In this document: in pieces, positions 44,001-62,157 of the stretch
Position numbering within the stretch: the stretch's first letter is position 1
Layout of the letters: each line of letters opens with the position of its first letter
Source of the DNA: Escherichia phage vB_EcoP_SP5M
Direction: 5' to 3' (one strand)
Length of the DNA: 64,000 bases
Sequence record: NC_070869.1
Program-made: the position numbers and the translations under genes
Notes under the pieces: model-generated
What the model was told of the DNA's origin: nothing
Databases searched by the model: none
The model's input: only the letters and a program-made list of their open reading frames with translations

Positions 44001-47000
44001 GACCAGACTTATCGAACTCAACCATCATATCAACAGCTGGCTTCAGATTGCCTTCCAGAGCCTTGGTCAGCTTTTCAGACATAGCCTCACGGGACATGTT
44101 ATGTACCTTGATGCCCAATGCCTGAGCCAGTCCTAGCTGGAAGTCAGAGTACGCTTGGCTGTTTTCATTACTTAAGTCGATAGTAGAGAAGGTCGGCAGA
44201 ATTGCTTCACGAACCAGTTTACTGGATTGTGGGTTGTTCTTACCAAGCATCTGCATACGGCCTACACGAGTCATGTTGTAACTGTAGTGAATAGGAGTAT
44301 CCAGTCCATTCTCTTGTTCTCGTATCTGATTAATTACACCGAACAGAGAATCATATGCCATAGACACGGACAGGTTTTTACCTTCCAGAGATTTAGCAGT
44401 GTTCTCATTCAGTAAGTCAGGATTAAGAGTACCAGCACCCATCAGTTCCAGAATGTTGTCACGGCCTAATGCTTCATAGAAGTTAACCATCGGCATATGT
44501 ACACGGAACTCAGTAGCCTGTTCAGCTTTCAGAGCAGCTTTCTGCTCAGGGGTATTTTTAACAGCAGGATTACGTAACTGAGTTTGAGCCACGGAAGGAA
44601 TGTCATCACCGAAGTACATTTTCTCTTCCGGATTTACCAGCACAGCTTCCTCAATTGCTGTAGGGAAATCATTAATAGGGTCTTTATCTGCCAGCTTATT
44701 AATGGTGTACAGACCAACAGTCTTATTAGAGTCTGGGTCAATCTCAGACACATCCAGCATAGTCTCAGTAACTGCACCCATCTCAATGAGAGAAGACAGA
44801 ATCTCTGTAGCCATTGCCATTGGGATACCTTTTGTATATCCCAAAGGTGCATTAGGATTGCGATTTAAACCCCAGTAGGATTCAATCTTCTGAGCCAGTG
44901 AGCTAGTAGCTTCAACCAGAGTCTGGGCATTCTCAAACTCAGCCAGAATACTTTCTGGTAACAGAGATGCTTCTACACCAGTAATAGCAGCTACATCTTT
45001 CATATCTTTAATAGCAGCATTCTGTGTAGCAGTCAGTCGCCATTGCAGACCAGCAAGCACAGCAGTCTCTAACAACTGGTCATTGAACTTAAAGGTATCA
45101 CCATCTCGTTCAACGATATTCAGCAGTTTGCCACCTACCCAACGATTAGCCTCAGTACCTTCTGCAAAACGTTTACCAACATTTTTGTTAGCAAGGAACT
45201 TAGCCAGTCGTTCAGACAGAGTAGTCTTCAGAGTTTCCCCAAAGTCCATCAAGTCCTGATAACGTTTCATCACATCACTGGTGAGAGCGTTATTTTCTTT
45301 TTGAGTGAATGCTTCAAAGCGAGCAGCAGAAGACAGTGCTTGCTTAATATCAGTCAAAGGAGATTCAGAACCAATGGTACGGGACTTAGGTTCTTCTGGT
45401 AGGGTAAATGCTTTCAGGAACTGGTTCGGTGTCTTTTCATTGTTATAGACAGGGAACACTGTTTCCATTTCTGTTTTGGTTTCGACTACTTCCTGGGTAG
45501 CATCTACTGTTTCAGATTCAGTAGTAGAGACTTCTTCTGCTTTTGGACTAGTCTCCTTAGTAGGAGCAGTCTTATTTTCTACCACTGGTTTAGATTTAGG
45601 CTGTACAGTAGTAGTGTCCTCTTGCACTGGTGCAGGAGATTCATCAACCTGATTCACTGGTTCATTGGTCTGTTGGGATTGAGCAGCATCAAGACTGCCC
45701 TGACGGAACTCTTTAACTACCTGAGCAGCAGGCTTGTTCAGACGTGGATCCAACGAGGTAACTTTCACATGAGAAACATTAAGCTCCGGGTAAGCCGTAG
45801 CAAGTGCATTAGCAATATCAGCTACGGTTTTGGCCTCCAGTCCTACTTGCTGGGCAAACTTAACAGACTTGGTATCATAAGGATTGACACCGAGACCAGT
45901 ACGACTACGTACCCATTCACGGGAAGGCGAGAGAGCCTGATAATGAACAGACTTATTCTTATCCGCATTCCCAGAAATCAGATGCTCATTCAACGCTCCG
46001 ACCTTATTCTGCATGTGCTGGGCGAACTTCATAAAGTCGCTCAGATAAGCGGAGGCCAAATCGAAGTTACCAGAGTTATACGCAGAACGAATGCGTTTCG
46101 CATGTTGCAACGCAGAGTACTGTCCTTCGTTAGAACGAGACTCGTCGGTTTTAATCTGTTTACTAACAATGTCTTGAGGACGTAAGCCTAGTTCTTCTGC
46201 TTTAGCGTCGAACTCACGTGCACCCTGTAATAAGGCAGCAGCCGATTGCAGGGCAGCACGTTGACGATTCCCCAGTGTAATCTTACCTTCACTTGCATGT
46301 TTCAGAACCATGTTCACTGAATCTGCGTCCAGTACTTCTGGAGACACATCAGCAGCCATAGCAATGTTGTTTGCTTGGGCTTGGTTAGCTTCTTCAGTAG
46401 CTTTCAGCTTACCTGCTTCAGCCTGTTCCTGAATCATGGAATGGATAGCACGGAATGCACGGAGTACTTTAGGGGTATTCTGTACGTTAGCCATCAGACC
46501 GGAGAACTGGTCTACGATAGTAGCAGCAGGGGAACCTTGTTCCAGATTAGCCAGAGCACCTGGGTCACGGTTAATGAAGCTATCCATAGACATGATGTTG
46601 TCATACATCTGGATTGCAGCTTCCATTTGAACGTTAGGGTCTTCGGCAGTATTAACCAGGTCAGCCATCTTCTGAATAGCTTCTACACGGTTAGTGGAAC
46701 CAGAAACAGCTTCACGGATTACTGGGTTAGCTTGTTCCAATTCTACTGGGTCAAACTTCATTGCCTGAGTTAAGTCAGCAGCATACTGAGTAGCAGCAGC
46801 TTTCTCTTCTGGAGTGATATCCATTGCATCTACTGCTTCCTGTACAGTTGCTTGTGCTTGCTCTGCCTGAGCAGCAGCTTCCTGTGCAGCAGCGTTAACC
46901 GTAGCATCAGCTACAGGGGATGCTTGTTCATTACGCTTAGCAACTTCTTCACCACGTTGAACCAGGATGTTAGTAAGAGGAGATGCAGCTTTTGCTAATG

Positions 47001-48417
47001 TTTTACCAACCAGAGAAGCACCAGCCAGAGTAGTACGAAGAGCAGGACCAGCAGCAGCTCCGGCAGCTTTAACAGTTGCACCTGGAGCTTGAGCAACCCC
47101 AGCACTACCGAAGCCATAAAGTGCACCAAGACCTGCTTGCTCACCAACCCCTTTGAGAGTGTCACGGGATGCATCAACATTTTCCTTGATTGCACGGTTC
47201 TGGGCATACTGACCAAAGCCTGACTGAATACCTTCCTCTACAGTCTCACGAAGCATATTAGAACCAGCACCTGCCAGTGAACCTACCTTAAGTGGATTAA
47301 GTTCAAACTTGGATACCAGTGGACCAGTAGCAGCAGCAACTGGGGCAGTTAAGCCAGCAGCAATGATACCTGTTTCGGATGCAGTCTGACGACGTGCTTC
47401 ATCAGGAGATAATCCATCAGCAATATGTTGTTGGTAAACAGGAGATTTACTTGCCAGTTCTTGATGAGGCATCTTCATGATTTCAGAAGCAGTCTGTTGG
47501 TATGCACCACCAGCTTCCATACCACCGATTGCAATAGCAGGTGCAGCAACACGACCAGCAGACAATGCAACCTGTGCAGGACGTGAACCTAACTCAGCAG
47601 CTAAGGTAATACCCTTAACAGCTTTATCCCCTCCTACCATTACTTTACCGAGTGCAGATACACCACGGATAAGTGGACCACCAGTAAAGAGGGAACCAAC
47701 ACCTTCACTCAGTCCATCGGAGGCAGCCATACCATTATCAAGTGTATTAGCAACAGAATCGAAAGCATCACGACCAATGCGGGACAAGGAGGCAACCAAA
47801 TCGCTCTCCCCGTTTTTGATGTCTTGTTCATAAAGTTTCTGGTTCTTTTGAGCAGAAATCTGGTTCTGATTCTGAACAACTTTACGGGTAGCATTCAGTG
47901 CATCAGACTGTAAATTGTGTACACCTTCATTCAACCAATCCATCCCGGAAGCAATGGATGCCCCGGCATTATCATTGACCAGACCTGTGCCAAGAGCAGC
48001 AATGCCCCCAAGGGTATTAGCAACACCAAGACCAACACCAGAAAGAGTATCGCCAAATGCTTCTGCGTTAGTACGTTGTTTAGATAAGTCCTGACGTACA
48101 GCATCAGCAGCATTAGCTCGGCTATTAAGAATTTGTAGACCCTGCTCATTACCGTATTTATTAATGATTTCTAAGGGGGAGGCTTGAGTGAAATCTGCCT
48201 GAAGTGAACCTGGTTCGAATGCACCGATTCCAAGATTACCTACTCGTCCGGTCTGGAGATTGTAAGCATTCTCTGGGGTTAATTGGAAAGGGCTTTGCCC
48301 TTGTGCAGCTTGCTTCTGAGAGGTTGCAGTAGAGACATCGACTTGCTTAGCATTAGTGATGCTGTCTGCGAAACCTGCCAGACGGTCAAATGTTGACATA
48401 GCATGTTTCCTGTTCAA
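38068..48417 (-). CDS. Virion-encapsidated RNA polymerase (N4 gp50-like vRNAP), 3449 aa
   Basis: Giant ORF at the N4 vRNAP position; TRVGR (T/DxxGR-like) and other RNAP-like motifs in the central region. Confidence 0.85.
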   Translation of the reverse strand: MNRKHAMSTFDRLAGFADSITNAKQVDVSTATSQKQAAQGQSPFQLTPENAYNLQTGRVGNLGIGAFEPGSLQADFTQASPLEIINKYGNEQGLQILNSRANAADAVRQDLSKQRTNAEAFGDTLSGVGLGVANTLGGIAALGTGLVNDNAGASIASGMDWLNEGVHNLQSDALNATRKVVQNQNQISAQKNQKLYEQDIKNGESDLVASLSRIGRDAFDSVANTLDNGMAASDGLSEGVGSLFTGGPLIRGVSALGKVMVGGDKAVKGITLAAELGSRPAQVALSAGRVAAPAIAIGGMEAGGAYQQTASEIMKMPHQELASKSPVYQQHIADGLSPDEARRQTASETGIIAAGLTAPVAAATGPLVSKFELNPLKVGSLAGAGSNMLRETVEEGIQSGFGQYAQNRAIKENVDASRDTLKGVGEQAGLGALYGFGSAGVAQAPGATVKAAGAAAGPALRTTLAGASLVGKTLAKAASPLTNILVQRGEEVAKRNEQASPVADATVNAAAQEAAAQAEQAQATVQEAVDAMDITPEEKAAATQYAADLTQAMKFDPVELEQANPVIREAVSGSTNRVEAIQKMADLVNTAEDPNVQMEAAIQMYDNIMSMDSFINRDPGALANLEQGSPAATIVDQFSGLMANVQNTPKVLRAFRAIHSMIQEQAEAGKLKATEEANQAQANNIAMAADVSPEVLDADSVNMVLKHASEGKITLGNRQRAALQSAAALLQGAREFDAKAEELGLRPQDIVSKQIKTDESRSNEGQYSALQHAKRIRSAYNSGNFDLASAYLSDFMKFAQHMQNKVGALNEHLISGNADKNKSVHYQALSPSREWVRSRTGLGVNPYDTKSVKFAQQVGLEAKTVADIANALATAYPELNVSHVKVTSLDPRLNKPAAQVVKEFRQGSLDAAQSQQTNEPVNQVDESPAPVQEDTTTVQPKSKPVVENKTAPTKETSPKAEEVSTTESETVDATQEVVETKTEMETVFPVYNNEKTPNQFLKAFTLPEEPKSRTIGSESPLTDIKQALSSAARFEAFTQKENNALTSDVMKRYQDLMDFGETLKTTLSERLAKFLANKNVGKRFAEGTEANRWVGGKLLNIVERDGDTFKFNDQLLETAVLAGLQWRLTATQNAAIKDMKDVAAITGVEASLLPESILAEFENAQTLVEATSSLAQKIESYWGLNRNPNAPLGYTKGIPMAMATEILSSLIEMGAVTETMLDVSEIDPDSNKTVGLYTINKLADKDPINDFPTAIEEAVLVNPEEKMYFGDDIPSVAQTQLRNPAVKNTPEQKAALKAEQATEFRVHMPMVNFYEALGRDNILELMGAGTLNPDLLNENTAKSLEGKNLSVSMAYDSLFGVINQIREQENGLDTPIHYSYNMTRVGRMQMLGKNNPQSSKLVREAILPTFSTIDLSNENSQAYSDFQLGLAQALGIKVHNMSREAMSEKLTKALEGNLKPAVDMMVEFDKSGHLPADAVDILKTSLGGDKSFVALMALMEYARYLNSDDRANFNTPLYVEADGVTNGPINAMVLMTGGKFTPDWIKNTAKGGLFFGKAGKTMNEHRSQDDSVDLYEASTNGLQQALNELRTTYRNNVPVMSQMNHLQKLMDLFIKDFNLNEDGTLDLKRGIAKNPLTITIYGSGARGIAGKMVSAITDTIYERLSDVLQARAADPSISPAMAMFGKEAASEADAQAMLDTFLTSMEALTGNVPVVRKGELSIQQVDGALTGKLNPQKFTVSGNALKNLQENMLYLFVEPMRTGIRNTVGEGLMHSTENLQKATQIQSLVLQDMFQQAVQAKLAEKEKDSTWKKGDFLTQKELNEIQESLSPLAPMIETGSQTFYIAGSENTDVANQVLATNLDDRMRVPMSIYAPSQAGVAGIPFMTIGTGDGMMMQTLSTMKGAPKNTLKIFDGMNIGISDITDASRKANEAVYTSWQGNPIKNVYDSYAKFMKNVDFSKLSDETKQAIAKSALEYDQREGATDDLLRAGAEQIERNLRNIALGVDIRHKVMNQVQTTVDQMAAVGAPYVNNGKISLEGLTVDQQVAKLNELFDAELNKRRDAVRAAKAEPVKEIPAMEQVGRVLKSGVRLLSNTAITKLAKEMSPEQQAVLKEVQKSLAAKDYKVVYGTPAQLDAYAIEKNITRPAPEDIEAAEAGNAYGWTNFDDKTIYLVTPSLETLVHELVHASTFESVLAHYEGTHNEAVQNIEDLMNQFRTLDVKNESPAVREAYADALITINGHLSNGFIEPAMAKAAALNEYMAWGLTNRELIGKQKKTTALKAMVQSVYEAIKRLVFGRKKAPANADDMFSGLLFNSSVVMRGQAPTAAVSKDTTLFHNKAYGDNTRLEELGQTFDKLITNYIGSEPVQQVIRKGKFSDAVVNATKVTRDVQAHGFTMNMQEQRLFTNIVAALATEAAISPAALSRVQEYYAHVTKNLTVEAFMADPDSTNPADRYYAQQKFDTIMGANNIEFDAQGRSSLLPTFVGLAMVSEEVRNVLANIPVMKADKKSGNTVDAMLTNIGTAAMSSLNARVAGDTKATNVQEGMDALAQTIMQTSLNAQSFYDSVATPSGNAIDRANQYLVDSIDALSTRALESAREVAANTKNPLVKGAAHAAQLVAAIATEKNGAIVAEGVMAAMNQGKVWQPFHDLINDLTGRTKSNASVYDLIKAVRAQVQADRQQFREHLPTTIASKFSRKLTNDEWKAMHTGMGKTDLAVLRDTMSLAEIRDLLSDQKIVDREVNKLEADLQKQAGRNWPLINRKSKQLAQYMINGTVGNNLLRNATAISRMLGERQAARSTVDVAQLDKLITLYALEAMNKSDREMLSSLAQTEVDGMDFATSYLVGQRKDEMAKAKSDPRATLNQYKGHIPSETKQGVNLIVAEDSQFGDLIEKSYVRLGTYQGSSANRGPARSYYFAPVQAQAPFSQGILQNVRDTAGGVDLGTGFTVGSMVAGRITDKPSVDRITKALARGERGNEPLLPVYDDKGNVVAYEQSIDPNMLKHIEGENHLARAIGVWRGRQVEEAKAQRFNDMLIENLHSMYENDIKMSASNKSQYVNLLGSKLDPVTADALKLMNSETRRKAESLFGEGELWVRRDMLNDALGYRAASVGDAWSGNSRWSPETLDTFKKAMLGVFGNRAYKYTMGGENLVQNLVKEAKTLIVVKSVVVPAVNFLANLYQMVARGVPVKNIAKSIPQKTAEINQYLKSRLRQVDAEAELRAATNPNQIRKLKAEIQSITDSHKRMSIWPLLEAGEFSSIADAGIGRDDILITEGKLHEYMDKLADKLPKSVRTAGRYALITKDTALFQGIQKTVEYSDFIAKAIIYDELTQRKGKTREEALGRVTEEFVNYDRLPGRFRGYMESVGLMWFYNFKIRSAKVAVSMIRNNPVHAAMAMLAPTPTMFGNVGLPIQDNIFSIAAKGSLDYSWGFGQGLRAHNLNPWMNLVN

Positions 48418-48493: not shown

Positions 48494-50458
48494 TTACCGA
48501 TTTTGTCTTGGTTGCATATACTCAGGCAGTCCTTGTGCCTGACGAAGGTATCGTTCAGCACGCTCCTTGTTTTCTTTCTCAACTGCCCGGTCTACAGAGG
48601 CCTGAGATTGGAAGTTACGTGGAGCCAGGTTTTGTGGGTCTGCTTGTACTTGTGCCTGTGCAGCTTGGAGCATTGCAGCAGCTTTAGTAACAGCCTCCTG
48701 ACGTGCAGGTAACAGTGCAGTAAGACCACTTTGTCCGGTGTTAATCTTATTCTGGGTATTTGTCAGTGCAGCTACAGCAGCATCATAAGCAGTCTGTGCT
48801 GCCTGAATGTTCTGCATAGCCTGAGCACGACCTAGGTTACGAACACTACCTTCCAGTGGCTCTCCCCGTTTCACACCCTCAATTAACTGTTCTACCTGAC
48901 GGTCATTAAGACGCATACCATTACCGGCTTCATTGGTAATGAATGGGTTAACTGCATCAATAGCACGACTAATATAACCTTCCGGTACACCAGTCTGTGC
49001 ACGTTGCATAACAGCAGCAGCCATAGCTGGTGACATATTCCCACGTTGAGAAATATCGTTCAGTCGGTTCAGTACCCAGTTACGGTCAGCACCTTTAAAG
49101 TCGCCCTCCAACAGACGGTTAGCAATCTCACCTACTGGGGTATTATCAGTGACAGTACCAAGGAAATCAGTATTAAGACTACCGGTGTTATCCTGCATAG
49201 AACGAGTACCAATCATACCCTGAGCCAGAGTAGATACTGCCTGATTACCTTGATTATTCTGAACCATAGCGAGCGGGTCAGACCCTACTTCTGCTTGGGC
49301 AATAACAGGTTTAATCTGTTCCCAAGTCATATCCTTATAAGCACCTGGGGTAGAGTTAGGCAGAGCAGCCCAGGTATCTTTAAGGTTACCGTTCTTACGA
49401 GACTCGAAGATAGCCTTACCAATCTTATCCTGGTTCTCAGCAGAAAGTGGCTGGCTTTGCCAATCTGAACCAAGAACTTTGGGGGCGAAGTCTTTCAGGG
49501 TAGCTTGGTTAATCTGGAATGCTCCAACAGGTGAAGCTCCTTGGTTAGACTTCATACCATCCTGGTGCTTAATTACATCACCAATACTCATTTGAGTAAT
49601 AGGAGTAGATGTACCAGCAAACTGGTAAGTAACATCGTAAGGGGAACCCTGACGAGTACCAGCAGTACCTGGAGCAGATGCAGCACCTACACCATTGCCA
49701 TATACACCCGGGTAAGCATTAGCCAGTAATCCCTGCAAACGTGCCTGTGCAACTGGGGACAGGTTCTTACTATATGCTTCTGCTAACAGACGGGCATCGT
49801 TGGGGTTCTCAGCACCACGGGTAATCTGTGCCATTACACCCATAGCAGCCTGACTATCAGCATCATTACGTTGAGCAACACCCAAATCAAAACGGTTCTG
49901 TGCCTGATTAATAGCCTGACCTCCCTGACCCTGAAGACTACCCATCATCTCCAGTTGTTGGTCAGCAGGCAGTGCAGACAGTGCCTCACGTGTCTGACTT
50001 AATGCAGCATTAATACGGTTCTGGTCACCGGACTGATAAGCTTCAGACAGTAAACGAATAGCAGGGGAAGCATTATCTAATGCAGAGTTAGTATCCTGTA
50101 AACGACCAAAGAGATAAGCATTGTAGTCATTGGTTCCCTGCTGACCTTGTTGAGTCAGTAATGTACCTGCTCGCTCATCCAGGTTTTGAAGGGTACGTTG
50201 GTTTACCAGTGAAGGGTCAACCCCCTGAAACAATGCACCAGATGCCAAAGCATTACGGTACTCATTCGGGTCTTGGTACTGCATAGCATTCATCATGACG
50301 GCATTGCCAGCCTCCTGCTTGGCAGCGTTCTGGAAATTACCCAGTGCATCACTTAAGCCGGAGGTGGCATTACCAATCATGCTACCAAATGTGCGAATGC
50401 TGTCACCAACTCCAGAGAAGTTAGGTGCATCAACATTTCTCCACGTTATCTGAGCCAT
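48494..50458 (-). CDS. Virion protein (N4 gp51-like position), Q/N/G-rich
   Basis: 654 aa ORF in the late module; synteny. Confidence 0.5.
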   Translation of the reverse strand: MAQITWRNVDAPNFSGVGDSIRTFGSMIGNATSGLSDALGNFQNAAKQEAGNAVMMNAMQYQDPNEYRNALASGALFQGVDPSLVNQRTLQNLDERAGTLLTQQGQQGTNDYNAYLFGRLQDTNSALDNASPAIRLLSEAYQSGDQNRINAALSQTREALSALPADQQLEMMGSLQGQGGQAINQAQNRFDLGVAQRNDADSQAAMGVMAQITRGAENPNDARLLAEAYSKNLSPVAQARLQGLLANAYPGVYGNGVGAASAPGTAGTRQGSPYDVTYQFAGTSTPITQMSIGDVIKHQDGMKSNQGASPVGAFQINQATLKDFAPKVLGSDWQSQPLSAENQDKIGKAIFESRKNGNLKDTWAALPNSTPGAYKDMTWEQIKPVIAQAEVGSDPLAMVQNNQGNQAVSTLAQGMIGTRSMQDNTGSLNTDFLGTVTDNTPVGEIANRLLEGDFKGADRNWVLNRLNDISQRGNMSPAMAAAVMQRAQTGVPEGYISRAIDAVNPFITNEAGNGMRLNDRQVEQLIEGVKRGEPLEGSVRNLGRAQAMQNIQAAQTAYDAAVAALTNTQNKINTGQSGLTALLPARQEAVTKAAAMLQAAQAQVQADPQNLAPRNFQSQASVDRAVEKENKERAERYLRQAQGLPEYMQPRQNR

Positions 50459-50470: not shown

Positions 50471-50935
50471 TTAACGGGTTAGTTTATTAGCTGCAATGTA
50501 AGCATCAGCCGAAGACTGGTCACGGTTCTCTGCTGTAGCACGGCTACGAGCACGGTCTTCCAGTGCAGTGTTATAAGACTTAATCTGGTTATTCAGGTTA
50601 GTGTTAGTAACACTCTTAGTAAAGTTCAGCTGGTCTTTGGCTAACTTGTTAGCCTGGAAACCACTATAGATACCAGCTAAGGAACCAAGTGCACCCAGCC
50701 CTAGTTGGAAGGTAGGTACGTTCATGCCCAACTGATTAGCTGAACCAGACAAGAAAGAAGTAGGGGAGGATACTCCTGTACCTGCATTCATACCAATAGT
50801 TGCACCAGGGGTATAGTTCATAGCTGGGGTATTAAAGTTCTGATTGTTATTAGGCATCCAAGACATAGCTCCTGGCTGAGGGGCTTGGTTGCCTGTTAAG
50901 AATGACAAATCCATAAGGATTCTCCTGTTAAACAA
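50471..50935 (-). CDS. Virion protein (154 aa)
   Basis: ORF track; late module. Confidence 0.45.
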   Translation of the reverse strand: MFNRRILMDLSFLTGNQAPQPGAMSWMPNNNQNFNTPAMNYTPGATIGMNAGTGVSSPTSFLSGSANQLGMNVPTFQLGLGALGSLAGIYSGFQANKLAKDQLNFTKSVTNTNLNNQIKSYNTALEDRARSRATAENRDQSSADAYIAANKLTR

Positions 50936-53582
50936 GGTCAGTATTAAGAGTCATATCAGTGTAGCTGCCAATCATGTTTAGAGACATATCAGCTATATCT
51001 GAACCAGTCATAAGAGTACGTGAGAGGAAAGAATCCATCGACTCCATTGACACGAATTGCATAGGGTCAATTACACCCTGTCCAGCAGTACCAAACATTT
51101 CTTCATACTGCTTATTGATTGCCATCATATCGGTATTGTACTTCTGCATTACACTCTCTGCTTTCTGAATAGTAGCAGCCGTAGATGCATTAATATACTG
51201 GCTAATGCCATTACCCACTGAACTGGTAAGCTGCATGATGTTTTGGGCATTCATCATTTCGCTGGCTAAGGTAGATAAGGATGTACCAGTAGATAGAGCA
51301 GTACCAACATTCATAGCTACCATTGAAGCAACAGCAGCGATGATAAAACCTAGCTTATCACCAAACAGTGAAGTAGATACTTTAGTGACAATAGATATCA
51401 TAATCATTGCAGCAATGGCGTTTGCTACAGCACCTACTATTACAGCAGCTAATCCAACAAAACCGAGTGATGCACCAACTGCACCATAAGCCCCAAGTAT
51501 ACCTACACCACCAGCACCCATAGTGAATACAGATACAACGACAGCAACTACAACAACCACAATCTTAAAGGCAGAAGTTTGATACCACTTCTTCTTAACC
51601 TTCTTATATGAGTTCATTACTAAGTAGGAACAAGCAGTAGACAGCTGAGTACTACGAGTCAGTGACATTGAACGGTAGATGTTAGTGTGCAGTGGGATAA
51701 TGAATCCACTCTCTTCTGCATCACCCATTGCTTCAGCAACATCAATGTTTACTGACTTGTTTTTATACACCCTGTTGCTGTGGTGCAGACCAAGTACCCT
51801 AAGTTTACGATAGGTGTTATCACCATCTTGCCAAAGCAACTCATATTCCTGCATAGAGTAAAACGTAGGAGTAACTTCCAATCTTTTAGTTGAACCAGAG
51901 TTACTAGCTGTACGTATGTTCTTGCGTGTAAGGGTTATATCCCCTGCATACCTGGCTCGAAGTTGTCCTTGTTTAGCACCTGCCCATGCTTTACCAGAAT
52001 GTGTAGTTTCAGATACATAATTCCAACGGATGGTCATGTCATACTTATAATGCTTACTACTATGCACCCTAAACTCTCGCTTAGGTATGACAGGATATTC
52101 CGGCAAGGGGGGTGGTGTTCCAACAATATGACCTTCCTGCCTGTTCCACCATTCTACGTATGCATCGACTGCATCATTAGCTGCCTGATAACCTGCAATC
52201 ACTGATTCCAATGTAGGGTAGGTTGGGTCAGGTGGGAATGCTTCAGTAGCCATCTGAAAGAAACGATAGATATATTCCTTAGCAGTATCTTCTGGAGTAT
52301 TAAGGGATACACCAAATGTGCCATAAATGTACTGAATATCACCTATGTCCTCATTCTTCTTAAGCTCCGTCATTACTTTATTAAGCTTACCACCAGTGGC
52401 TTTATAGAGAGCCTTCTTACAGTGGGGGTAAATTGGGTCATACTCTACCCATTGTTTATCATTCCTGATTGGGATGAATGGATAGAATCGGTTATCAGTA
52501 GCTTCAGTTTCAAACAGTGAGTCAAGTACAGCGTTGCCGGAATTGTACTTATAGATAAGCAGTTTGGGTGTACTAACAGCAGCCATCTCAGTATCAGTAC
52601 GAGTAATCTGAGATGAGTATTTACGAACCAGTGTTTCCGTAGTTGTGGTGATTGTGTCAGTGCGAGTAACACCCCCACCTAAATCAACAACATTGGTAGT
52701 TACAGTAGTACTGGATTGTATCTCACCGAACTTTTTATGAGTCATTACTCTGTCAGATACAACTACAGTTACATCATCCGGCTTCTCAGTAAATCCTCTA
52801 CGGTAAACCTTAACGTAAGAGTTCCAGTTATCTATGCTTGATTCAGTAACAGTACTGTCTTCATCTGGCCTACCATCAGAGTAAACAGAATGAGTCTGTA
52901 TAGTCTTGGTAAGATTGGCTGTATTAGCTGTCGTATCACTTGAGATAGTAGTCCATAACAAAGTAGACGGTAAGTCATCCTCATCATCATAGACAGTAGT
53001 CGGACCTTCTACTGGTGGATTGGTAGTAGGTGACTTATAGAATGTGTAGTCAGCATAGAGATACAAAGCACCTGGTTCAAAGTTAGTAGGTGTGAATGTA
53101 ATAGTAGAGCCTCCATCTAAGGAGGTCATAGTAATTTCATTGGTATCTTCATCAATGTCTATGTCGAATCGTTCCATGATTCGACTTGGGGCATTTTCAT
53201 AAAGATACTGGTCACACCATTGCTCAAAGTCAGCAAAGCCAATTTCTGCTGCCTGAACATAGACTGTTTCTCCAGCAGGTGGAGTAAGTTGACCCTGTAT
53301 AACAGTAGGGTCAATCTTAGCCAGTACACCTAATGAAGAACCAGCCATACCAACTTCTGAATCATAGTGGTTTTTACTCCAGCTGGAGAACAGTCGCATA
53401 CGAATACCAGGTCCGTTCAGATAACTATCGGAGATAGTATCTGCCATACTGAATCCTGTATTAGCAACAATATTACCAATAACCACAGTCTTCATATAGT
53501 TTGGACGTTTATGTATATCCCCTGCCATGTTATAGACAGAGGATGCTACGTATACTTTGGTTTTCCCACTGAATAAGCCCAT
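50928..53582 (-). CDS. Large virion protein with long Gly/Ala/Val-rich hydrophobic segment
   Basis: 884 aa; about 100-residue hydrophobic stretch (VVVVVAVVVSVF ... AAVIVGAVANAIAAMIMISIV). Confidence 0.5.
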   Translation of the reverse strand: MGLFSGKTKVYVASSVYNMAGDIHKRPNYMKTVVIGNIVANTGFSMADTISDSYLNGPGIRMRLFSSWSKNHYDSEVGMAGSSLGVLAKIDPTVIQGQLTPPAGETVYVQAAEIGFADFEQWCDQYLYENAPSRIMERFDIDIDEDTNEITMTSLDGGSTITFTPTNFEPGALYLYADYTFYKSPTTNPPVEGPTTVYDDEDDLPSTLLWTTISSDTTANTANLTKTIQTHSVYSDGRPDEDSTVTESSIDNWNSYVKVYRRGFTEKPDDVTVVVSDRVMTHKKFGEIQSSTTVTTNVVDLGGGVTRTDTITTTTETLVRKYSSQITRTDTEMAAVSTPKLLIYKYNSGNAVLDSLFETEATDNRFYPFIPIRNDKQWVEYDPIYPHCKKALYKATGGKLNKVMTELKKNEDIGDIQYIYGTFGVSLNTPEDTAKEYIYRFFQMATEAFPPDPTYPTLESVIAGYQAANDAVDAYVEWWNRQEGHIVGTPPPLPEYPVIPKREFRVHSSKHYKYDMTIRWNYVSETTHSGKAWAGAKQGQLRARYAGDITLTRKNIRTASNSGSTKRLEVTPTFYSMQEYELLWQDGDNTYRKLRVLGLHHSNRVYKNKSVNIDVAEAMGDAEESGFIIPLHTNIYRSMSLTRSTQLSTACSYLVMNSYKKVKKKWYQTSAFKIVVVVVAVVVSVFTMGAGGVGILGAYGAVGASLGFVGLAAVIVGAVANAIAAMIMISIVTKVSTSLFGDKLGFIIAAVASMVAMNVGTALSTGTSLSTLASEMMNAQNIMQLTSSVGNGISQYINASTAATIQKAESVMQKYNTDMMAINKQYEEMFGTAGQGVIDPMQFVSMESMDSFLSRTLMTGSDIADMSLNMIGSYTDMTLNTDLV

Positions 53583-53583: not shown

Positions 53584-54426
53584 TTAGTTCAGCCCGTTGT
53601 TAGACTTCAGCTTGGTCAGAATGGTATCAATACTTGCGTTAGTGAAACCATTAGGAGGATTCAAGCCCTCATCAATAGTCTTCTGTGTAATCCATGCATC
53701 AGTAAACAATTTAGCCGCTTTAACTTCTGCATCTCGTTGGTAAGAAGTAATCTGTTGGGAATACAATTCTTTCTGTTTACCAATAGAACCAAGAATAGGT
53801 AATGCATCAGAACGGGTTTCTTGGGTCTGTGCACGCTGTACTTCATATTGTTCCTGTATCAAACGTTCTTGTGCAGGAAGAATTTTTTCTGAAGTATACA
53901 GTGCAGCACAGTATGTTTCAGACTCAGTAGCAATCTTCATCTTAGTGAGGGCATATTCACTCTTAGCAGACAGTGCCTGAATCTTAGCCAGTACAAACTG
54001 TGCCTTAGAAGTTGCCAGTTGAACACGTGCAGTAACTGCTTGAATCTGTGCCATAGCAGCAGCCCAGTATGCCTGGTCACGACCAAGTAAGAACTGAACA
54101 GCATTATTCATGCAGGCTTCCATCGTAGCAATGTACGCCTTGGTATATTCACCACCAGTAATACGGTTAGCTTTATACTCAGCTTTAAGGTGATTGTGTG
54201 CAGATTCCATTAATGCATCAAACGTACCACTACCACCTACTTCACGGGTAGTAAGTGATTCATTTGTTACTTTAGTAATAGCATCAAAGATTGGGGAGGA
54301 ATCCCCACCAGGGATATCCCATTCAGGGCCAGACATATCAACATCAGGAAGGGTAAAGTCATCACCCTTAGTTAACTCATCTAGGAGACGGTTAGCTTCT
54401 ACCTCAGCAGAACAAGACATAATCAT
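53584..54426 (-). CDS. Virion structural protein (280 aa)
   Basis: ORF track; late module. Confidence 0.45.
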
Positions 54427-55205: not shown

Positions 55206-56408
55206 TTACAGAGGAGCAACAGTCTTAATCAGAGCCAGACGTTCTGGACGTTTAACCAGAATACCGTAGTACCACTTGATGGAACTGAAACCAGTCTCGC
55301 CATACGGGTCATTACGGTCAGCAGTTTCTCGACCAGGCATCTTAGTCATGATGGAGAACTTAACAGACTTACCATCAGTCTGGAAGCCAATGGTAGAGAA
55401 GGAGTCATCACCAACTACCAGCATCGGGAATACGTCGTAGTGTTCTTGACCACTAACCATAGAAGAACGGTAACCCGGGTTAGAAGAGACTTGAGCACCA
55501 GCACCTGCCCAATGCAGCATCTCCGGAACCTGAATAATACGGAACTTGTCGATACAACCGACTTCACCGTTCATCAGAGTACCAGCATCAGCATAGTGCT
55601 GAACCTCGATGAATGCTTTGTTACCAAACAGGTCTTTCATCGCTTTCAGTTCTGGAACCAGTTCAGAACCAACGTACATTACGCGAGTACCACCAAGTAC
55701 TTTGGTATCAGTCAGCTTAGAACCAGTGATGATAGTAGTCTGGGTCGGAGTACGGTTCTCAGTAAGAATCTGGTCAAGACGCATCAGGTTCTTATAAGAA
55801 ACTACAGACGGGGTAGAACCTTCACCAGTGATGGTAGCATCAGAGGTAGCAGCACCTGCATACAGTACAGTACCTGCAGCAGCCAACAGGTCTTTCTGGA
55901 GAACAGCTTCAGTCAACTGTACAGCACCGTTCATCAGTTCACGAGACAGGTGTTCTTTCAGTTGGTCATCAGAATCAAAGTCCAGGGACTCTTGAGTAAA
56001 TTCGTAGAAGAAACCGAACTTATGGATGGAACCTTCGCGAGACAGACGGGTAAAGCCTACACGGTTAACACGACCACCGTTCTCTGTCAGCAGAGGCAGT
56101 TTAGAGGTAATGTTACCGACGTCTTTAGAAGAACCATACAGGTTACCATTAACGATGGTAGCACCGTTGGCATCAATACCCTGGTCGTTGATGTTCTTAT
56201 CATCAAGCAGTGGAACGTACTCGTACACCTTAACAGTCTTACCGTAGTTCTTCGGCATGTTGATGGTGTTAGCCAGTGGCATGAAGTACTGATCTTTACG
56301 AGACTGAATAATAGCTTTCTTCAGCCAGTAAAAGGTATTCATCTGGTCGGAACCAGCACCATCAATGCTAGATTTCTGACCGTCAACTGGAGCGTTATAG
56401 TTTAACAT
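55206..56408 (-). CDS. Major capsid protein
   Basis: 400 aa, size and position match N4-like major capsid gene; antisense 472-aa ORF judged spurious. Confidence 0.65.
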
Positions 56409-56424: not shown

Positions 56425-57645
56425 TTAAAGACTACCCGGTACTGGGAGTTTAGCGAAATCTTCATCACTCATAGCGAGTGGGTTTACAATAGGTGTTGCT
56501 TTACGTGTAGCAGCCCGACTTAGGGAAGCTGCTTTAGCTTGCTCACTGTTAGCCAGGGTCTGCTTAGGTTGTGCTACACGCACTACCGGCTGAACCACTG
56601 GTTTAACTGCTTGTACCGGTTCAGGCTTAGCCACTCGGTTAAATGCCCCTTGTTGTGCAAGAAGGTTACCGACGTGGTTATAAGCCTGAATGAACGGAGT
56701 ACCAACCGGAATCTGACCTAACATCTGAAGACGATTCACTTCATTTGCAATGGTGTCATAAATACCATTCTCACGTTGTTCGTGAATAGTCTGGAGTAGT
56801 CCACGATTCTGGTAAAGAGCATCTTTACTGGCAGCATCCCATGTCGAGCCGATAACACCTAATGTAGCTTGTCCTTCTTGAGTAGACTTTAAGTCGTCAA
56901 TTTCGGTTGCAAAATCTGCTTCGGTGTCGGTAACACGGTGATTGCCACCCTGGTAGTTAATTTCCTCATCTGGATTAAAGTCCAGGGGGTCTGTACCAGA
57001 GTCTTTGAGCAACTTCTTAATGGCTTCAGGATTCTTTTTATCCAGGTCAATCAGGAAAGAAAGTTTATCCTCATCCATTAAACCGTTGTTCTGTAACATC
57101 AGCATTACCTTACGGTAAGGCTTTAGTTCTTGCATCTTACGAGTATAGTTAGCACCCATCTGCATCAGGCTAATGGCCTCCTCCGGTGAACGGGGAGTAA
57201 TCACTTTGCCGTTAGCTTTAAAAGGAGCCATCAACTTCTCGTAACCTTCCTTATAGTTGAAGTCAGCAGGCAGACCTTCAGACTGTTTGCCTTCTTCTTC
57301 CTGTTCCTGGCCTGGTTCAGTAGTAGAAGGTTCAGCTTTAGTAATCGGCTCACCGTTACTATCAACTTCTGTGTCAACAACTTTATCATCAACTTTATCA
57401 GAAGTTAAAGGATTTGCTGAATCTTCTTCATCTGGTTCGGCTTCAGGGGAGGTTTCTTCGGTTGGTAGGTCTTCAACAGCAGGGGTGGCAACTTCTTCTT
57501 CAGGAGTCTGTACGCCGTTGGTTTCTGGGTTGTTCTGAGTGGAAGTGTCTTCCTCAGCGATAATTGCTGGGGCTTCCATATTCAGAATCTCATCATCCGA
57601 CATTGCGAGAATGTCGGAAGCTGTGGTTGCAGCTTCCGTAGTCAT
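56425..57645 (-). CDS. Acidic protein upstream of capsid gene (scaffold-like candidate)
   Basis: 406 aa, strongly acidic N-terminal half; position. Confidence 0.4.
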   Translation of the reverse strand: MTTEAATTASDILAMSDDEILNMEAPAIIAEEDTSTQNNPETNGVQTPEEEVATPAVEDLPTEETSPEAEPDEEDSANPLTSDKVDDKVVDTEVDSNGEPITKAEPSTTEPGQEQEEEGKQSEGLPADFNYKEGYEKLMAPFKANGKVITPRSPEEAISLMQMGANYTRKMQELKPYRKVMLMLQNNGLMDEDKLSFLIDLDKKNPEAIKKLLKDSGTDPLDFNPDEEINYQGGNHRVTDTEADFATEIDDLKSTQEGQATLGVIGSTWDAASKDALYQNRGLLQTIHEQRENGIYDTIANEVNRLQMLGQIPVGTPFIQAYNHVGNLLAQQGAFNRVAKPEPVQAVKPVVQPVVRVAQPKQTLANSEQAKAASLSRAATRKATPIVNPLAMSDEDFAKLPVPGSL

Positions 57646-58022: not shown

Positions 58023-60299
58023 TTACAGGTTCATGCCAAGAGCCGATGCTGGATCTTGGCTAGGGTCATAGTATTGGGAACTAAGTGAATAAGCTGGGTC
58101 TTGTTGAGCAGCTAAATCGCGTTCTGGTATTGAGTTCCCATCAGTCAAAGTATTATATCCAACAGCAGCAGATATGTTGGGGGTAGTTTCCCCTTCTTTA
58201 ATAGGTGTTGTCAATGCCTTAGTTATTTGAAGGTTCTGGTTTCCTTGAGATTGTGCTTTTTGTTTTTCCATATCACGAGCATGTTTAGTACCAGATTCCT
58301 GTTCCAGATAATCCAGGTCTTTAAGGTCACCACTAGAAGCAGCCTCTTTAGCCTTAGCCATATTGAGTGCAATCTTACTTTGCAGCTCTTCATTCTCAAG
58401 CTGTGCTTTCTGAATTGCCAATTGCTTAAGCTGTTCTTCCATAGGGTCTGGCTGTGGTCGCCAAGTACGTAACTCATGAGCCAGGTCAGGCATACGTTTA
58501 AGTTCTGCAATCTTAGCTACAAGAGATAGCGTAATAGTTTGGTCAACCGTATTACCTAGTGTTTGAACCATGAAGCTCAAATCCTGAGACTTCTGGTTAT
58601 CAATTTCAGCAGTGTTAATATCAACCTCAATGTCGAAGTTACCTTTAAGGTCTTCACGGTTAATCTCTACATACTGCTCATTAGTAATACGTACTACTTC
58701 CTTCTCAGATAAGAACACAGCATTCATTGCACAAATCTTAGTACCAATGTCTGCCATACCTTTAGCTAATCGGCGAAGGATTGCCATCTCACGTTTGGAT
58801 GCTGCATCAAGTGCACCACGAATACCAGCAGCCACGTCACCATAAGCAGAACCAGTTACACCACCGGAGAATGCTTTAACACCAGTTAGTGATTCTGCTT
58901 CCTGGTTTTGCATCTGGGTCATTACTATTGCCGACTGAGGTAATTCAGGGAACTTATGTTCCATAATAGCCTGACTAGGATTGCCCTGCATTGGGTTGTA
59001 TTCATAGTCTTGCCCATCGTCATATCGACGACGGTTTAGTGTATCCAGCATCCCTTTAGGATAACCACGTTGACCATTTGCACTACGACCCAACAGGTCA
59101 ATCATCCCACGCATAGTTGCACCAAGAATCGCTTGGTTATCCCCTAAAAGTTCAGCATCGGCTTCACCAAAGAGTTCACGCTTACGTGGCATGTAAGGAA
59201 CAACTACCAAAGGTAACTTACCATCAGGGAATGGGTTCTTCTCCATACGAATAAGAGTAGAACCAATCCAGGTAGCAACAATAGGTTCCAAAGAACCATC
59301 ATCATTGATGTCGTAAAATCCCCAGTATTCATAAGCAACAACTTTCTTACGAAGTGCATCCTTAAACTGGAAGTCGCTTGGAGTTTTACTCTCATGGTCT
59401 GGGTCAGTCATAGGACTGGAGCTTTCCCAGTCAATCTTATCTAAGTTGTGATATAGATCCTTGTTCTTCATGAGGTCTGCTTTGCATGTCTCAAAGGAGA
59501 TAACTGCATACAGAGCCTTATCCAAATCACCATTACAGCTTGGATCAATAACTACGTTATTAGGATTAAGCATTTCAACGGTAGGTCTGTTAACCAGTGC
59601 CTTCTCTACCTCTACTTCAGTAACTCCTGTCTGTATTGCATAGGTAGCTTCTCCAGTTTCATTGAAGTAGTTAACAGCTTCCTTAATATCTTCAGGCATT
59701 GTTTCGTCGTACTCACGAGGATTCTCTGCCTGAAGTTGTAAAGCCTGTTGAAGAACATCTGCCTGTTCCTGGTTCTCAATTGGATACAACTGGAAGACCG
59801 GTGTTTCTGTTTTAATTTTAACAGTCTTACGTTCCCAGCCAATACGAGCAATACCAGTACCGTCATCTACGACACTGTGTACGTAATCATCCACCAGTTT
59901 TACTTTATTAAGCTGGGTACGGAATTGGTAGTTAAGAACTAATTCATTCTGTCGTGCAGCTAACTCATCTTCAAAGGTAACAGGAGTTACTTTAAAGAGT
60001 TTATTAGATGAGAGGAACGGCTCAGACAATGGAGCATACCGCCACTCTGCCTGACGGCGAACCAGTCTGGGTTGGACTTGTGACCGTCCTTTAACCTTTG
60101 GGGGTTTAGCTTTACCCTTGACTTCCATCAGGTCATTCCACTCACGAATCTGTGCCATGATTGCTTCGTGAGCAGGTTTAGCTGATTCCAAATCACCCTT
60201 CAGTAATTGGATACTTGGTTCCTTCTTCCAGTCCGTTAGCTTCTCTGATTGAGCCGGGTCAGGTAAAGGCTTAAAAGTGTCTTGGTGTTCCATAGTCAA
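58023..60299 (-). CDS. Portal protein
   Basis: 758 aa at the N4 portal position; acidic C-terminal region. Confidence 0.65.
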
Positions 60300-60301: not shown

Positions 60302-60802
60302 CTATTCAAAAAGTTTACGGTCAGCCTGAATTTGTTTACCCAACTCAACTAGTTGGTTGTCACGGAGTCTAACAGTTGCCCGGAGTTCTTCAACCAAACG
60401 TCTGCCTTCTTCAAGACTACTGTCGAGTCTGGCTGCATGGCTTGCAAGACTTCTGCACTCAAGGGTTCCGGCTTCGGCTTGACGTTTATATACCGATGCT
60501 CGTCTTTCAGACTGTTGCATCCGGCTGTCGTAATCACTGCTAACGCGAGCAAGCTCGCTTGCGTAATTACTCTCAGCCATCTGCAACCGGGAAGTAAGTA
60601 ACCCGACTTCATAACTATGGTTTCTTTGGAGAGCATTGTATTTGTCCTGTAGTTTTTGTGTTGCCTTCAGGTCTTCGACCTTTTGGTCATCCCATTTCTT
60701 TTGAACAGTAGACTGCCCATTGGAATTGCCCCAAAAGTAAATGGTGGCCCCGAGGACCACCACCAGAAGATAAGGCCAACCTTTAGAGATTAGCATCTTC
60801 AT
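60302..60802 (-). CDS. i-spanin (Rz-like): N-terminal TM helix plus coiled-coil periplasmic domain
   Basis: [16 protein letters not shown] helix followed by charged coiled-coil region. Confidence 0.55.
60349..60612 (-). CDS. o-spanin (Rz1-like) lipoprotein embedded in another frame of the i-spanin gene
   Basis: Signal peptide with lipobox-like AVITTAGC, Pro-rich mature part; entirely embedded. Confidence 0.5.
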   Translation of the reverse strand: MKSGYLLPGCRWLRVITQASLLALAVITTAGCNSLKDEHRYINVKPKPEPLSAEVLQAMQPDSTVVLKKADVWLKNSGQLLDSVTTN

Positions 60803-61985: not shown

Positions 61986-62157
61986 AGGGACTTTCTCAGG
62001 TTAGTTAAGTCATAATTGACTAAAACAGTCTACCTAATGACTTGTTTGTGGTACAACAAAAACCCTCCCCAACAGTCTAGCTGGGCTGGTTAGTACCTAA
62101 AATATTGAACAATAAATCTGTCTACAACAAAGCCTACAAGGAGGCAATGAGCCACCG

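What the first reader, a model, noticed from the sequence alone, without database searches (positions are those of the whole stretch)
51300..51640. Roughly 100-residue Gly/Ala/Val-rich hydrophobic segment inside an 884-aa virion protein
The central-to-C-terminal part of ORF 50928..53582 contains an unusually long hydrophobic, small-residue-rich stretch resembling multiple glycine-zipper helices. In a virion protein encoded next to the injected RNAP this suggests a membrane-inserting ejection or channel component.
Basis: inference. Interest (0 to 1): 0.4.

Follow-up and report, generated by a model that had tools for sequence, protein, structure and literature searches.

The report
Hydrophobic cork of N4-like tail plug
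The long greasy Gly/Ala/Val-rich stretch is real, but it is the already described "hydrophobic knot" with which the single-copy tail plug protein (N4 gp53 family) of N4-like phages corks the tail tube, not a new membrane channel protein.

Summary
ORF 50928..53582 lies on the minus strand and encodes 884 aa. Residues about 670-765 are V/A/G-rich, with a 60-residue uncharged run that no shuffle matches in hydropathy.

Cryo-EM of N4 (Bellis et al., Nat Commun 2026) shows gp53 as a one-copy tail plug. Residues 29-56 and 670-716 (here 29-56 and 674-720) weave six short helices into a "hydrophobic knot" that corks the 12-mer tail tube. The last ~160 residues lie unresolved in the lumen.

These segments are the best-conserved parts of the family. 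The C-terminal module matches at least 1,872 50%-identity clusters and sits at the C-terminus in the 150 best hits.

It is a plug cork, not a shown channel. In N4 the pore formers are gp52 and gp51.

Two stretches are hydrophobic enough to span a bilayer, so insertion after unplugging is untested but not excluded. This genus lacks N4's plug anchor gp64/gp65. Already known; low interest.

The parts
50928..53582 (-). Gene for the 884-aa tail plug protein, ortholog of N4 gp53 and DEV gp74 (PHROG 2220)
53415..53498 (-). aa 29-56, an N-terminal helical hairpin. It is the first half of the 'hydrophobic knot' (N4 residues 29-56).
   Evidence: 71% identical to N4 29-56. AF2 predicts helices 29-39/40 and 46-55. 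Covariation pairs 33-53, 37-49 and 31-54 indicate a hairpin. The N4 structure is described.
51579..51605 (-). aa 660-668, KKVKKKWYQ: a conserved basic/aromatic junction between the globular core and the hydrophobic segment
   Evidence: K663 is invariant in the 36-sequence alignment and at least 90% conserved in the 86-sequence one. K665 is 83% identical as a residue (94% charged, i.e. K or R) in the 36-sequence alignment and at least 90% in the 86-sequence one. W666 is 97% and Y667 92% conserved. The motif is also present in Pollock gp62 and Vibrio JA-1 gp47.
51423..51563 (-). aa 674-720: the hydrophobic segment that forms the second half of the knot corking the tail tube (N4 residues 670-716)
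   Evidence: 66% identical to N4 670-716. No charged residue at any position 674-729 in 36 homologs of 30-93% identity. G707 is invariant; G694, G697, G703, G710, A713 and G717 are at least 90% conserved. Summed insertion free energy over 19 residues is about 0 for 674-692. Covariation pairs 695-728, 708-720, 706-720 and 701-723 indicate a helical hairpin. Pairs 29-684 and 50-716 link it to the N-terminal hairpin.
51288..51422 (-). aa 721-765: continuation of the hydrophobic segment. It holds the helix around invariant N721, a loop with conserved FGDK, and a last hydrophobic helix 744-765. The N4 model ends at the equivalent of aa 728.
   Evidence: N721 is invariant; G741 and G745 are 97% conserved. 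Insertion free energy is -0.5 for 711-729 and +1.6 for 744-760. The N4 model covers residues 9-724, equivalent to 9-728 here.
50931..51287 (-). aa 766-884: conserved polar/amphipathic C-terminal tail. In N4 it lies unresolved in the tail lumen.
   Evidence: E847, F852, R855 and T856 are invariant. AF2 predicts helices at low confidence. Covariation pairs 782-863, 774-870, 780-875 and 804-857 suggest a folded helical bundle. [quoted passage not shown]
52581..53036 (-). aa ~183-334: long beta-sheet 'feather' domain on the outside of the plug
   Evidence: AF2 predicts strands 211-334 with pLDDT around 90. This region is deleted in the ~725-775-aa size class of the family. The N4 paper describes a feather-shaped beta-sheet that DEV gp74 lacks.
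53584..54426 (-). Tail tube protein (N4 gp54 homolog). Its 12-mer is the tube that the knot plugs.
   Evidence: tblastn with N4 gp54: 64% identity, E 5e-127. PHROG 2050, virion structural protein. Its role in N4 is described.
50471..50935 (-). N4 gp52 homolog: a small ejection protein stored in the tail lumen above the plug. It forms membrane pores in N4.
   Evidence: tblastn with N4 gp52: 57% identity, E 8e-46, aligned from 50914. It has an 87-residue uncharged run.
48494..50458 (-). N4 gp51 homolog (ejection protein)
   Evidence: PHROG 6126, E=0. The PhAPEC7 annotation reads 'similar to virion protein gp51 from N4'.
38068..48417 (-). Virion RNA polymerase (N4 gp50 homolog), 3449 aa
   Evidence: ORF list. 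The PhAPEC7 annotation reads 'putative virion RNA polymerase'.

Best explanation
The gene encodes the tail plug of a G7C-like (Gamaleyavirus) N4-like phage, the ortholog of N4 gp53.

[quoted passage not shown] Most of the protein is outside the tube: a globular core plus a beta-'feather'.

The flagged hydrophobic stretch (aa 674-720) folds together with an N-terminal helical hairpin (aa 29-56). Together they form a compact knot of about six short helices pushed into the tube opening like a cork. This keeps the pressurised DNA and the lumenal ejection protein gp52 inside. The remaining ~160 residues are one more hydrophobic helix and a conserved helical tail. They extend up the tube lumen.

On receptor engagement the plug is displaced sideways. 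gp52, gp51 and the virion RNA polymerase then leave through the tube.

Basis of each step:
- Shown here: orthology, conservation, helical character, and hydrophobicity.
- Shown in N4 (and at low resolution in DEV): the knot-in-tube geometry and single copy number.
- Inferred: that the same geometry holds in this phage, and the displacement step.
For: Orthology:
- Full-length match to PDB 9YFT chain 'Gp53' (E=0) and 55% global identity.
- Same gene order as N4: gp54-gp53-gp52-gp51-vRNAP.

Published structure: N4 gp53 residues 29-56 and 670-716 form a hydrophobic knot of six short helices that corks the tube base. gp53 was found in virions by LC-MS. The symmetry mismatch is 12:6:1.

Mapping: these residues equal 29-56 and 674-720 here, at 71% and 66% identity.

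Conservation: aa 1-60 and 669-762 are the most conserved parts of the protein. The mean top-residue fraction is 0.66 and 0.60 there, against 0.42-0.51 elsewhere. No charge occurs at 674-729 across 36 homologs. The module is also present in Humphriesvirinae and in Vibrio schitoviruses. It matches 1,872 50%-identity clusters and is C-terminal in the 150 best hits listed.

Covariation (Meff about 200) gives contacts within the segment (695-728, 708-720, 701-723). It also gives contacts between the segment and the N-terminal hairpin (29-684, 50-716).

Virion presence in a closer relative: Moo19 gp70.
Against: - No structure exists for a Gamaleyavirus tail tip. In Moo19 the distal density was too weak to model.
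- AF2 as a monomer leaves aa 688-805 at pLDDT below 50, so the knot is not reproduced computationally.
- This genus lacks N4 gp64/gp65, the sheath that anchors the N4 plug. Retention and triggering must therefore differ.
- The covariation analysis is underpowered, and clade structure may inflate it.
- The knot explains aa 674-720 only. The role of aa 721-884 is unknown.
Confidence: 0.85

Rival explanations
1. Dual-state segment. In the virion the helices are stored as the knot. After receptor-triggered unplugging the exposed hydrophobic helices partition into the outer membrane. There they anchor the tail or prime insertion of the gp52 pore. This would be analogous to the lumen-stored hydrophobic stretch of the T5 tape measure pb2. 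It would add to the plug role rather than replace it.
For: - Two 19-residue stretches have a summed insertion free energy of 0 or below (674-692: 0.0; 711-729: -0.5), and 744-760 is marginal. The rest of the protein is at +8.4 or above (scale values recalled from Hessa et al. 2005).
- A conserved Lys-rich/Trp-Tyr motif precedes helix 1, like a membrane-interface belt.
- An exposed knot would be energetically unfavourable in water.
- One database record labels a homolog 'membrane protein' (H21).
Against: - N4 particles that released DNA still show the plug seated in the tube. The authors propose lateral displacement and re-corking.
- There is one copy per virion, too few to build a DNA channel.
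- Pore activity is assigned to gp52 and gp51.
- Conserved glycines every 3-7 residues, and prolines in some homologs at 687-690, fit short packed helices better than long straight spans.
- No experiment addresses gp53 and membranes.
Confidence: 0.15
2. The segment is a true membrane anchor used during assembly. Newly made gp53 is inserted into the host inner membrane through its C-terminal helices, and tails are built on it there, before extraction into the tube.
For: The hydrophobicity is sufficient for membrane insertion. A late C-terminal position is compatible with post-translational insertion. This rests on inference only.
Against: - No evidence exists from N4, DEV or Moo19 work.
- The mature state is clearly non-membrane.
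- No signal peptide or lipobox features were noticed.
- Extracting a multi-helix anchor from a membrane would be costly.
Confidence: 0.05
3. One reading: gp53 is an encapsidated ejection protein that forms multi-spanning transmembrane glycine-zipper helices and builds the trans-envelope channel.
For: Hydropathy and enrichment of small residues. The gene lies in the same late operon as the ejection genes.
Against: - The solved ortholog is an external single-copy plug.
- There is no sequence or fold similarity to gp52, gp51 or T7 gp14-type proteins.
- No strict glycine-zipper motif is present.
- The plug is retained on emptied N4 particles.
Confidence: 0.03

Closest known systems
Escherichia phage N4 gp53, tail plug of the 'tail-gating complex' (PDB 9YFT; Bellis et al., Nat Commun 2026, PMC13434306; preprint PMC12633501)
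   Same: Full-length ortholog with 55% identity, nearly the same length (884 versus 885 aa) and the same gene neighbourhood. It has the beta-feather. Both knot segments are conserved (71% and 66% identity), as are the junction motif KKVKKKWYQ and the C-terminal tail.
   Different: It belongs to a different genus (Gamaleyavirus, not Enquatrovirus). N4's plug anchor, gp65 domains D9-D10 with gp64, has no homolog in the window or in the tail module of the close relative PhAPEC7. The partner that holds and releases the plug must be different and is unknown.
Pseudomonas phage DEV gp74, tail plug (PDB 9ZE4 chain M; mBio 2026, PMC12892993)
   Different: Only 12-14% identity. DEV gp74 has 740 aa and lacks the beta-feather. 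It is held by the gp56-gp55-gp54 receptor-binding fibre.
Bacteriophage T5 tape measure pb2 hydrophobic stretch and BHP pb3 plug (Sci Adv 2023, PMC10038345)
   Same: A functional analogy only. A hydrophobic stretch of about 46 residues is kept inside the tail tube next to a plug, in a presumed metastable state that is released on receptor binding.
   Different: There is no sequence or fold relation. T5 uses a trimeric hub plug and a separate trimeric tape measure. Membrane insertion is proposed for T5 and is untested for gp53. gp53 is a monomer that combines plug and lumenal segment in one chain.
P22 gp26 / Sf6 tail needle (podophage tail plugs)
   Same: Same job: sealing the tail channel after packaging (stated).

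Membership tests
Schitoviridae tail plug (N4 gp53 / DEV gp74; PHROG 2220) | End-to-end sequence homology to N4 gp53 | tested here: met
   phmmer against PDB 9YFT_FA: E=0, residues 1-883 on 1-883. 55% global identity. PHROG 2220, E=0, profile positions 1-847 of 850.
Schitoviridae tail plug (N4 gp53 / DEV gp74; PHROG 2220) | Gene lies directly after the tail-tube gene (gp54) and before gp52-gp51-vRNAP on the late strand | tested here: met
   ORF order on the minus strand. N4 gp54, gp53 and gp52 map by tblastn to 53590-54420, 50934-53582 and 50474-50914. N4 and PhAPEC7 annotations agree.
Schitoviridae tail plug (N4 gp53 / DEV gp74; PHROG 2220) | Globular core fold of the solved plug | tested here: met
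Schitoviridae tail plug (N4 gp53 / DEV gp74; PHROG 2220) | The two segments that build the hydrophobic knot (N4 29-56 and 670-716) are present and conserved | tested here: met
   They map to aa 29-56 (71% identity) and 674-720 (66% identity). They are the best-conserved regions in 36 homologs (invariant and near-invariant columns of the 86-sequence alignment).
Schitoviridae tail plug (N4 gp53 / DEV gp74; PHROG 2220) | One copy in the virion, seated in the distal opening of the 12-mer tube | not testable with these tools
   Shown for N4 and DEV. Virion presence by mass spectrometry was shown for Moo19 gp70. There are no data for this phage.
N4-type tail-gating complex (plug held by sheath gp65 D9-D10) | Presence of gp64/gp65 sheath proteins | tested here: not met
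   tblastn with N4 gp64 and gp65 gave no hit (E up to 1e-3) in the window or in PhAPEC7 59000-71778. The PhAPEC7 annotation goes from gp63 to a tail fibre and a gp66-like gene. No Gamaleyavirus record appears among the 40 rows shown of the 120 records matching gp65; the other 80 were not listed. The window ends at 64000, so the comparison relies on a 94%-identical relative.
Pore-forming / membrane-spanning ejection proteins (N4 gp52, N4 gp51, T7 gp14-like) | Stretches hydrophobic and long enough to span a bilayer | tested here: met
   KD19 above 1.6 over aa 666-765. Insertion free energy is 0 or below for 674-692 and 711-729.
Pore-forming / membrane-spanning ejection proteins (N4 gp52, N4 gp51, T7 gp14-like) | Homology to a known ejection or pore protein | tested here: not met
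   No Pfam or NCBIfam family matched. The only PDB sequence hits are the two plugs. The only credible fold hit is DEV gp74.
Pore-forming / membrane-spanning ejection proteins (N4 gp52, N4 gp51, T7 gp14-like) | Stored inside the capsid or lumen in several copies, and leaves the particle on ejection | not testable with these tools
   The literature on the ortholog says the opposite: one copy, mostly external, and still present on emptied particles in vitro.
Glycine-zipper helices (GxxxGxxxG) | The motif itself | tested here: not met
   No GxxxGxxxG and only two GxxxG (703, 741). The relaxed pattern [GAST]xxxGxxx[GAST] occurs four times. Small-xxx-small pairs are enriched 3.7-fold. Conserved small residues sit at spacings of 3-7 residues (694, 697, 703, 707, 710, 713, 717, 721, 724).

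The most novel reading that the evidence does not exclude
The 'hydrophobic knot' may be a spring-loaded storage form of membrane-competent helices. When the receptor-binding apparatus pulls the plug out of the tube, aa ~670-765 unravel and insert into the outer membrane. This would fix the tube over the entry site and seed the gp52 pore. gp53 would then be plug, trigger and first membrane-inserting element in one chain.

In G7C-like phages, which lack the gp65 sheath, a tailspike (gp66-like or gp63.1-like) would be the trigger.
Probability: 0.15. Interest if true: 0.55.

Novelty: already known. Interest (0 to 1): 0.2.

Why it matters
For annotation, records for this genus label the gene 'hypothetical protein', and one pipeline even splits it into unrelated names (H1). 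It can safely be called 'tail plug protein (N4 gp53-like)'.

For biology, little here is new. The plug and its hydrophobic knot were described for N4 in 2025-2026 and for DEV in 2026.

Two open questions remain:
- What happens to a bilayer-competent hydrophobic knot once it is pulled out of the tube during a real infection?
- What holds and releases the plug in G7C-like phages, which lack the N4 sheath?

The second question bears on how host recognition is coupled to genome release in a group of phages used for therapy and typing.

Tried and rejected
1. Pfam and NCBIfam scans of the whole protein, and Pfam scans of aa 641-884 and 765-884 up to E=10, gave nothing credible.
2. AlphaFold2 with 36 and then 86 sequences models the core well. 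The segment stays at pLDDT below 50, so neither the knot nor a TM bundle could be tested by prediction. Only secondary structure was usable.
4. A strict glycine-zipper motif is absent.
5. The antisense ORF 51205..51489 (+), 94 aa, lies opposite the segment. It is a by-product: 43% of the sense codons there start with G. That puts C in the middle of the antisense codon, so no stop can form.
6. The other N4 asymmetric structure paper (Zheng et al., Structure 2025, PubMed 40318628) is not held and could not be read.
7. A full-length mean-field covariation run exceeded memory. It was repeated on aa 1-80 plus 630-884.
8. No dedicated TM-topology predictor was available. I used Kyte-Doolittle hydropathy and a summed Hessa-type scale recalled from memory, which is approximate.
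Full report
**1. Observation**

The ORF at 50928..53582 is real, but it lies on the minus strand. It encodes 884 aa. The flagged bases 51300..51640 encode aa 648-761, which is the C-terminal quarter.

That stretch is 19% Val, 16% Ala and 11% Gly, against about 6% each elsewhere. It has no Arg, Glu, His or Pro.

Residues 674-733 form a 60-residue run without any charged residue or His. The best 60-residue window has mean Kyte-Doolittle hydropathy 2.17. In 20,000 shuffles of the same protein the maximum was 1.65. Only 3 shuffles reached the uncharged-run length.

No product of the neighbouring late genes gp54-gp59 has even one 19-residue window above 1.6.

I used a summed insertion free-energy scale recalled from Hessa et al. 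2005, so the values are approximate:
- Residues 674-692 score about 0.
- Residues 711-729 score -0.5.
- Residues 744-760 score +1.6.
- The rest of the protein is never below +8.4.

The composition claim therefore holds and is far beyond chance. The 'glycine zipper' label is loose. Small-xxx-small pairs are enriched 3.7-fold. There are only two GxxxG motifs and no GxxxGxxxG.

A 94-codon ORF sits on the opposite strand (51205..51489). It is a by-product of the many G-initial sense codons, which forbid antisense stops.

**2. What the locus is**

Over bases 48000-56000 the window is 94-96% identical at the DNA level to Gamaleyavirus genomes, the G7C-like Schitoviridae. Examples are K57alpha1.2, NAN33P5 and PhAPEC7.

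The minus-strand gene order is:
- portal (58023..60299)
- gp58-like
- gp57-like
- major capsid (55206..56408)
- gp55-like
- tail tube, gp54-like (53584..54426)
- this gene
- gp52-like (50471..50935)
- gp51-like (48494..50458)
- the 3449-aa virion RNA polymerase (38068..48417)

This order follows, and it is the N4 order. tblastn with N4 proteins gives 64% identity for gp54, 54% for gp53 and 57% for gp52.

The gene is therefore near the vRNAP gene but not adjacent to it.

**3. Identity of the protein**

- It matches PDB entry 9YFT chain FA ('Gp53' of phage N4) end to end, with E=0 and 1055 bits.
- More weakly, it matches 9ZE4 chain M ('N4 gp53-like protein' of Pseudomonas phage DEV), E 2.5e-14, through the C-terminal module.
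- Global identity to N4 gp53 is 55%.
- There is no Pfam or NCBIfam family. PHROG 2220 ('unknown function') matches with E=0.
- AlphaFold2 models the first ~670 residues well, with pLDDT mostly 70-94. This part includes a long beta-sheet at about 211-334.

**4. What is known about that family**

Bellis et al. (Nat Commun 2026, PMC13434306; preprint PMC12633501) solved the asymmetric N4 tail tip. Their findings:
[quoted passage not shown] - gp53 was detected in virions by LC-MS.
- The plug is held by domains D9-D10 of the receptor-binding sheath protein gp65, giving a 12:6:1 symmetry mismatch.
- Emptied particles still carry the plug. The authors explain this by lateral displacement and re-corking 'facilitated by the hydrophobic knot'.

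Pore-forming activity in planar bilayers was shown for gp52 and gp51, not for gp53.

In DEV the homolog gp74 plugs the tube and is held by the gp56-gp55-gp54 receptor-binding fibre. In Moo19, an Enquatrovirinae relative, the gp53-like gp70 was found in virions by mass spectrometry. The distal density there could not be modelled.

**5. Mapping onto this protein**

- N4 29-56 corresponds to aa 29-56 here (71% identity).
- N4 670-716 corresponds to aa 674-720 (66% identity).
- The end of the N4 model (residue 724) corresponds to aa 728.

- the conserved junction KKVKKKWYQ (aa 660-668);
- the knot-forming part (674-720);
- about 45 further hydrophobic residues (721-765) that begin the unresolved lumenal portion.

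*Conservation.* In 36 homologs of 30-93% identity, the N-terminal 60 residues and residues 669-762 are the most conserved parts. The mean top-residue fraction is 0.66 and 0.60 there, against 0.42-0.51 for the rest. No sequence has a charged residue anywhere in 674-729.

K663, G707 and N721 are invariant in the 36-sequence alignment. In the 86-sequence alignment only N721 stays invariant, and K663 and G707 are at least 90% conserved. G694, G697, G703, G710, A713, G717, A724 and G745 are at least 90% conserved. Indels fall only at 690-693, 710/711 and about 767.

The exterior is the variable part. A size class of about 725-775 aa lacks aa ~183-332, the feather. This fits a conserved interface with the conserved tube and a variable interface with lineage-specific receptor-binding partners.

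*Distribution.* The same KxKWYQ motif plus hydrophobic module is present in Escherichia phage Pollock gp62 (Humphriesvirinae) and Vibrio phage JA-1 gp47. A profile of aa 641-884 finds 1,872 50%-identity clusters at E up to 1e-3, and 620 at E up to 1e-30. In the 150 best hits the module sits at the C-terminus of proteins that are mostly 700-920 aa long; some shorter entries are probably truncated gene calls.

*Covariation.* I ran a mean-field analysis on 241 sequences (Meff about 200). It is underpowered and may be inflated by clade structure. It recovers features that AF2 also predicts: strand pairing 8-18 with 652-663 (pairs 15-658, 11-662) and the N-terminal hairpin (33-53, 37-49).

It also gives three other sets of pairs:
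- an antiparallel hairpin inside the segment (695-728, 708-720, 706-720, 701-723);
- contacts between the segment and the N-terminal helices (29-684, 50-716, 69-715, 10-727), as expected for the knot;
- contacts within the unresolved tail (782-863, 774-870, 780-875, 804-857), which suggest the tail folds as a helical bundle in some state.

*Structure prediction.* Both AF2 runs predict helices throughout 670-830, but with pLDDT below 50 from about 688. The fold evidently depends on context.

**7. Mechanism**

My best explanation, at confidence 0.85, is that the segment is the cork of the tail plug.
- Shown here: orthology, synteny, core fold, conservation of both knot halves, and helical and hydrophobic character.
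- Shown in N4 and DEV: the geometry and copy number.
- Inferred: that the same geometry applies in this phage, and how the plug is displaced.

The main rival is really an addition to the plug role. The knot could be a metastable store of bilayer-competent helices that enter the outer membrane after unplugging.

Points for it:
- the two stretches with insertion free energy of 0 or below;
- the Lys-rich/Trp-Tyr junction;
- the T5 precedent, where a 46-residue hydrophobic stretch of the tape measure is stored in the tube and a plug refolds into membrane legs.

Points against it:
- the plug is retained on emptied N4 particles;
- there is a single copy per virion;
- gp52 and gp51 are the demonstrated pore formers.

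I put this rival at about 0.15. An assembly-time membrane anchor gets 0.05. The strict 'ejection or channel protein' reading gets 0.03.

**8. A difference from N4**

N4 gp64 and gp65 have no detectable homolog in the window or in the remaining tail module of PhAPEC7. That relative is about 94% identical to the window in the compared region. N4 gp66 matches only in its first 72 residues.

In the phage collection, the listed full-length gp65 relatives are Enquatrovirus, Achromobacter and Delftia phages.

The N4 mechanism of plug retention therefore cannot apply here. A tailspike, gp66-like or gp63.1-like, is the obvious candidate, but I did not test this. The window ends inside that module.

**9. 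Verdict**

The feature is already known from N4 and DEV work of 2025-2026. This is an ortholog in a sister genus. Interest is low (0.2). The residual value lies in the untested fate of the knot during infection and in the unknown plug partner of G7C-like phages.

Noticed in passing
window 60302..64000 and L004 (PhAPEC7 59000-71778): This genus has no homolog of N4 gp64/gp65, the sheath whose D9-D10 domains anchor the N4 plug. N4 gp66 matches only in its first 72 residues. The protein that holds and releases the plug in G7C-like phages is therefore unknown.
   Followed up: partly
window 50931..51287 (-), aa 766-884 of the plug: The C-terminal ~120 residues are unresolved in the N4 map. They are well conserved (E847, F852, R855, T856 invariant). 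They show strong covariation pairs (782-863, 774-870, 780-875, 804-857), which suggests a folded helical bundle rather than a disordered tail.
   Followed up: partly
window 50471..50935 (-): The gp52 homolog has an 87-residue uncharged run (aa 10-96 of the listed ORF). The mechanical ORF starts at a TTG (50935) and overlaps the plug gene by 8 bases. The N4 gp52 alignment starts at 50914 and PhAPEC7 annotates a shorter product, so the true start is probably downstream.
   Followed up: partly
window 51205..51489 (+): A 94-codon antisense ORF lies opposite the hydrophobic segment. It is explained by G-initial sense codons (43% there), which put C in the middle of the antisense codons and so prevent stop codons.
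   Followed up: yes
window 52581..53036 (-), aa ~183-334: The beta-'feather' domain is missing from a ~725-775-aa size class of the family, including DEV gp74. It gives weak Foldseek hits to aerolysin/ETX-type beta-pore-forming toxins (E 8.8e-5, probability 0.23, TM below 0.1). These probably reflect generic long beta-hairpins.
   Followed up: partly
window 48494..50458 (-), aa 506-626 of the gp51 homolog: A weak NCBIfam hit to NlpC/P60 RipA (E 5e-5, 22.5 bits against a cutoff of 625). It covers profile positions 126-245 only. From memory these are the non-catalytic N-terminal part. It is not evidence of peptidoglycan hydrolase activity.
   Followed up: no
window 56425..57645 (-): PHROG 2120 and several GenBank records call the gp57 homolog a 'tail length tape measure protein'. 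That is an odd label for a short-tailed phage whose tube is a single 12-mer ring.
   Followed up: no
window 60302..61985 (-): A lysis cassette lies downstream of the portal gene: an Rz-like spanin (60302..60823), an endolysin/N-acetylmuramidase (60783..61418), a holin-like ORF (61408..61734) and a small PHROG 5211 ORF (61653..61985).
   Followed up: no
L001 (PhAPEC7 49523-52177) and hit H1 (K57alpha1.2): Database annotation of this gene is poor. It is 'hypothetical protein' in most records, while its neighbours are 'structural protein'. In K57alpha1.2 the region carries unrelated labels ('ATPase', 'Hoc-like head decoration', 'PROTEIN RAP1A COMPLEX').
   Followed up: no
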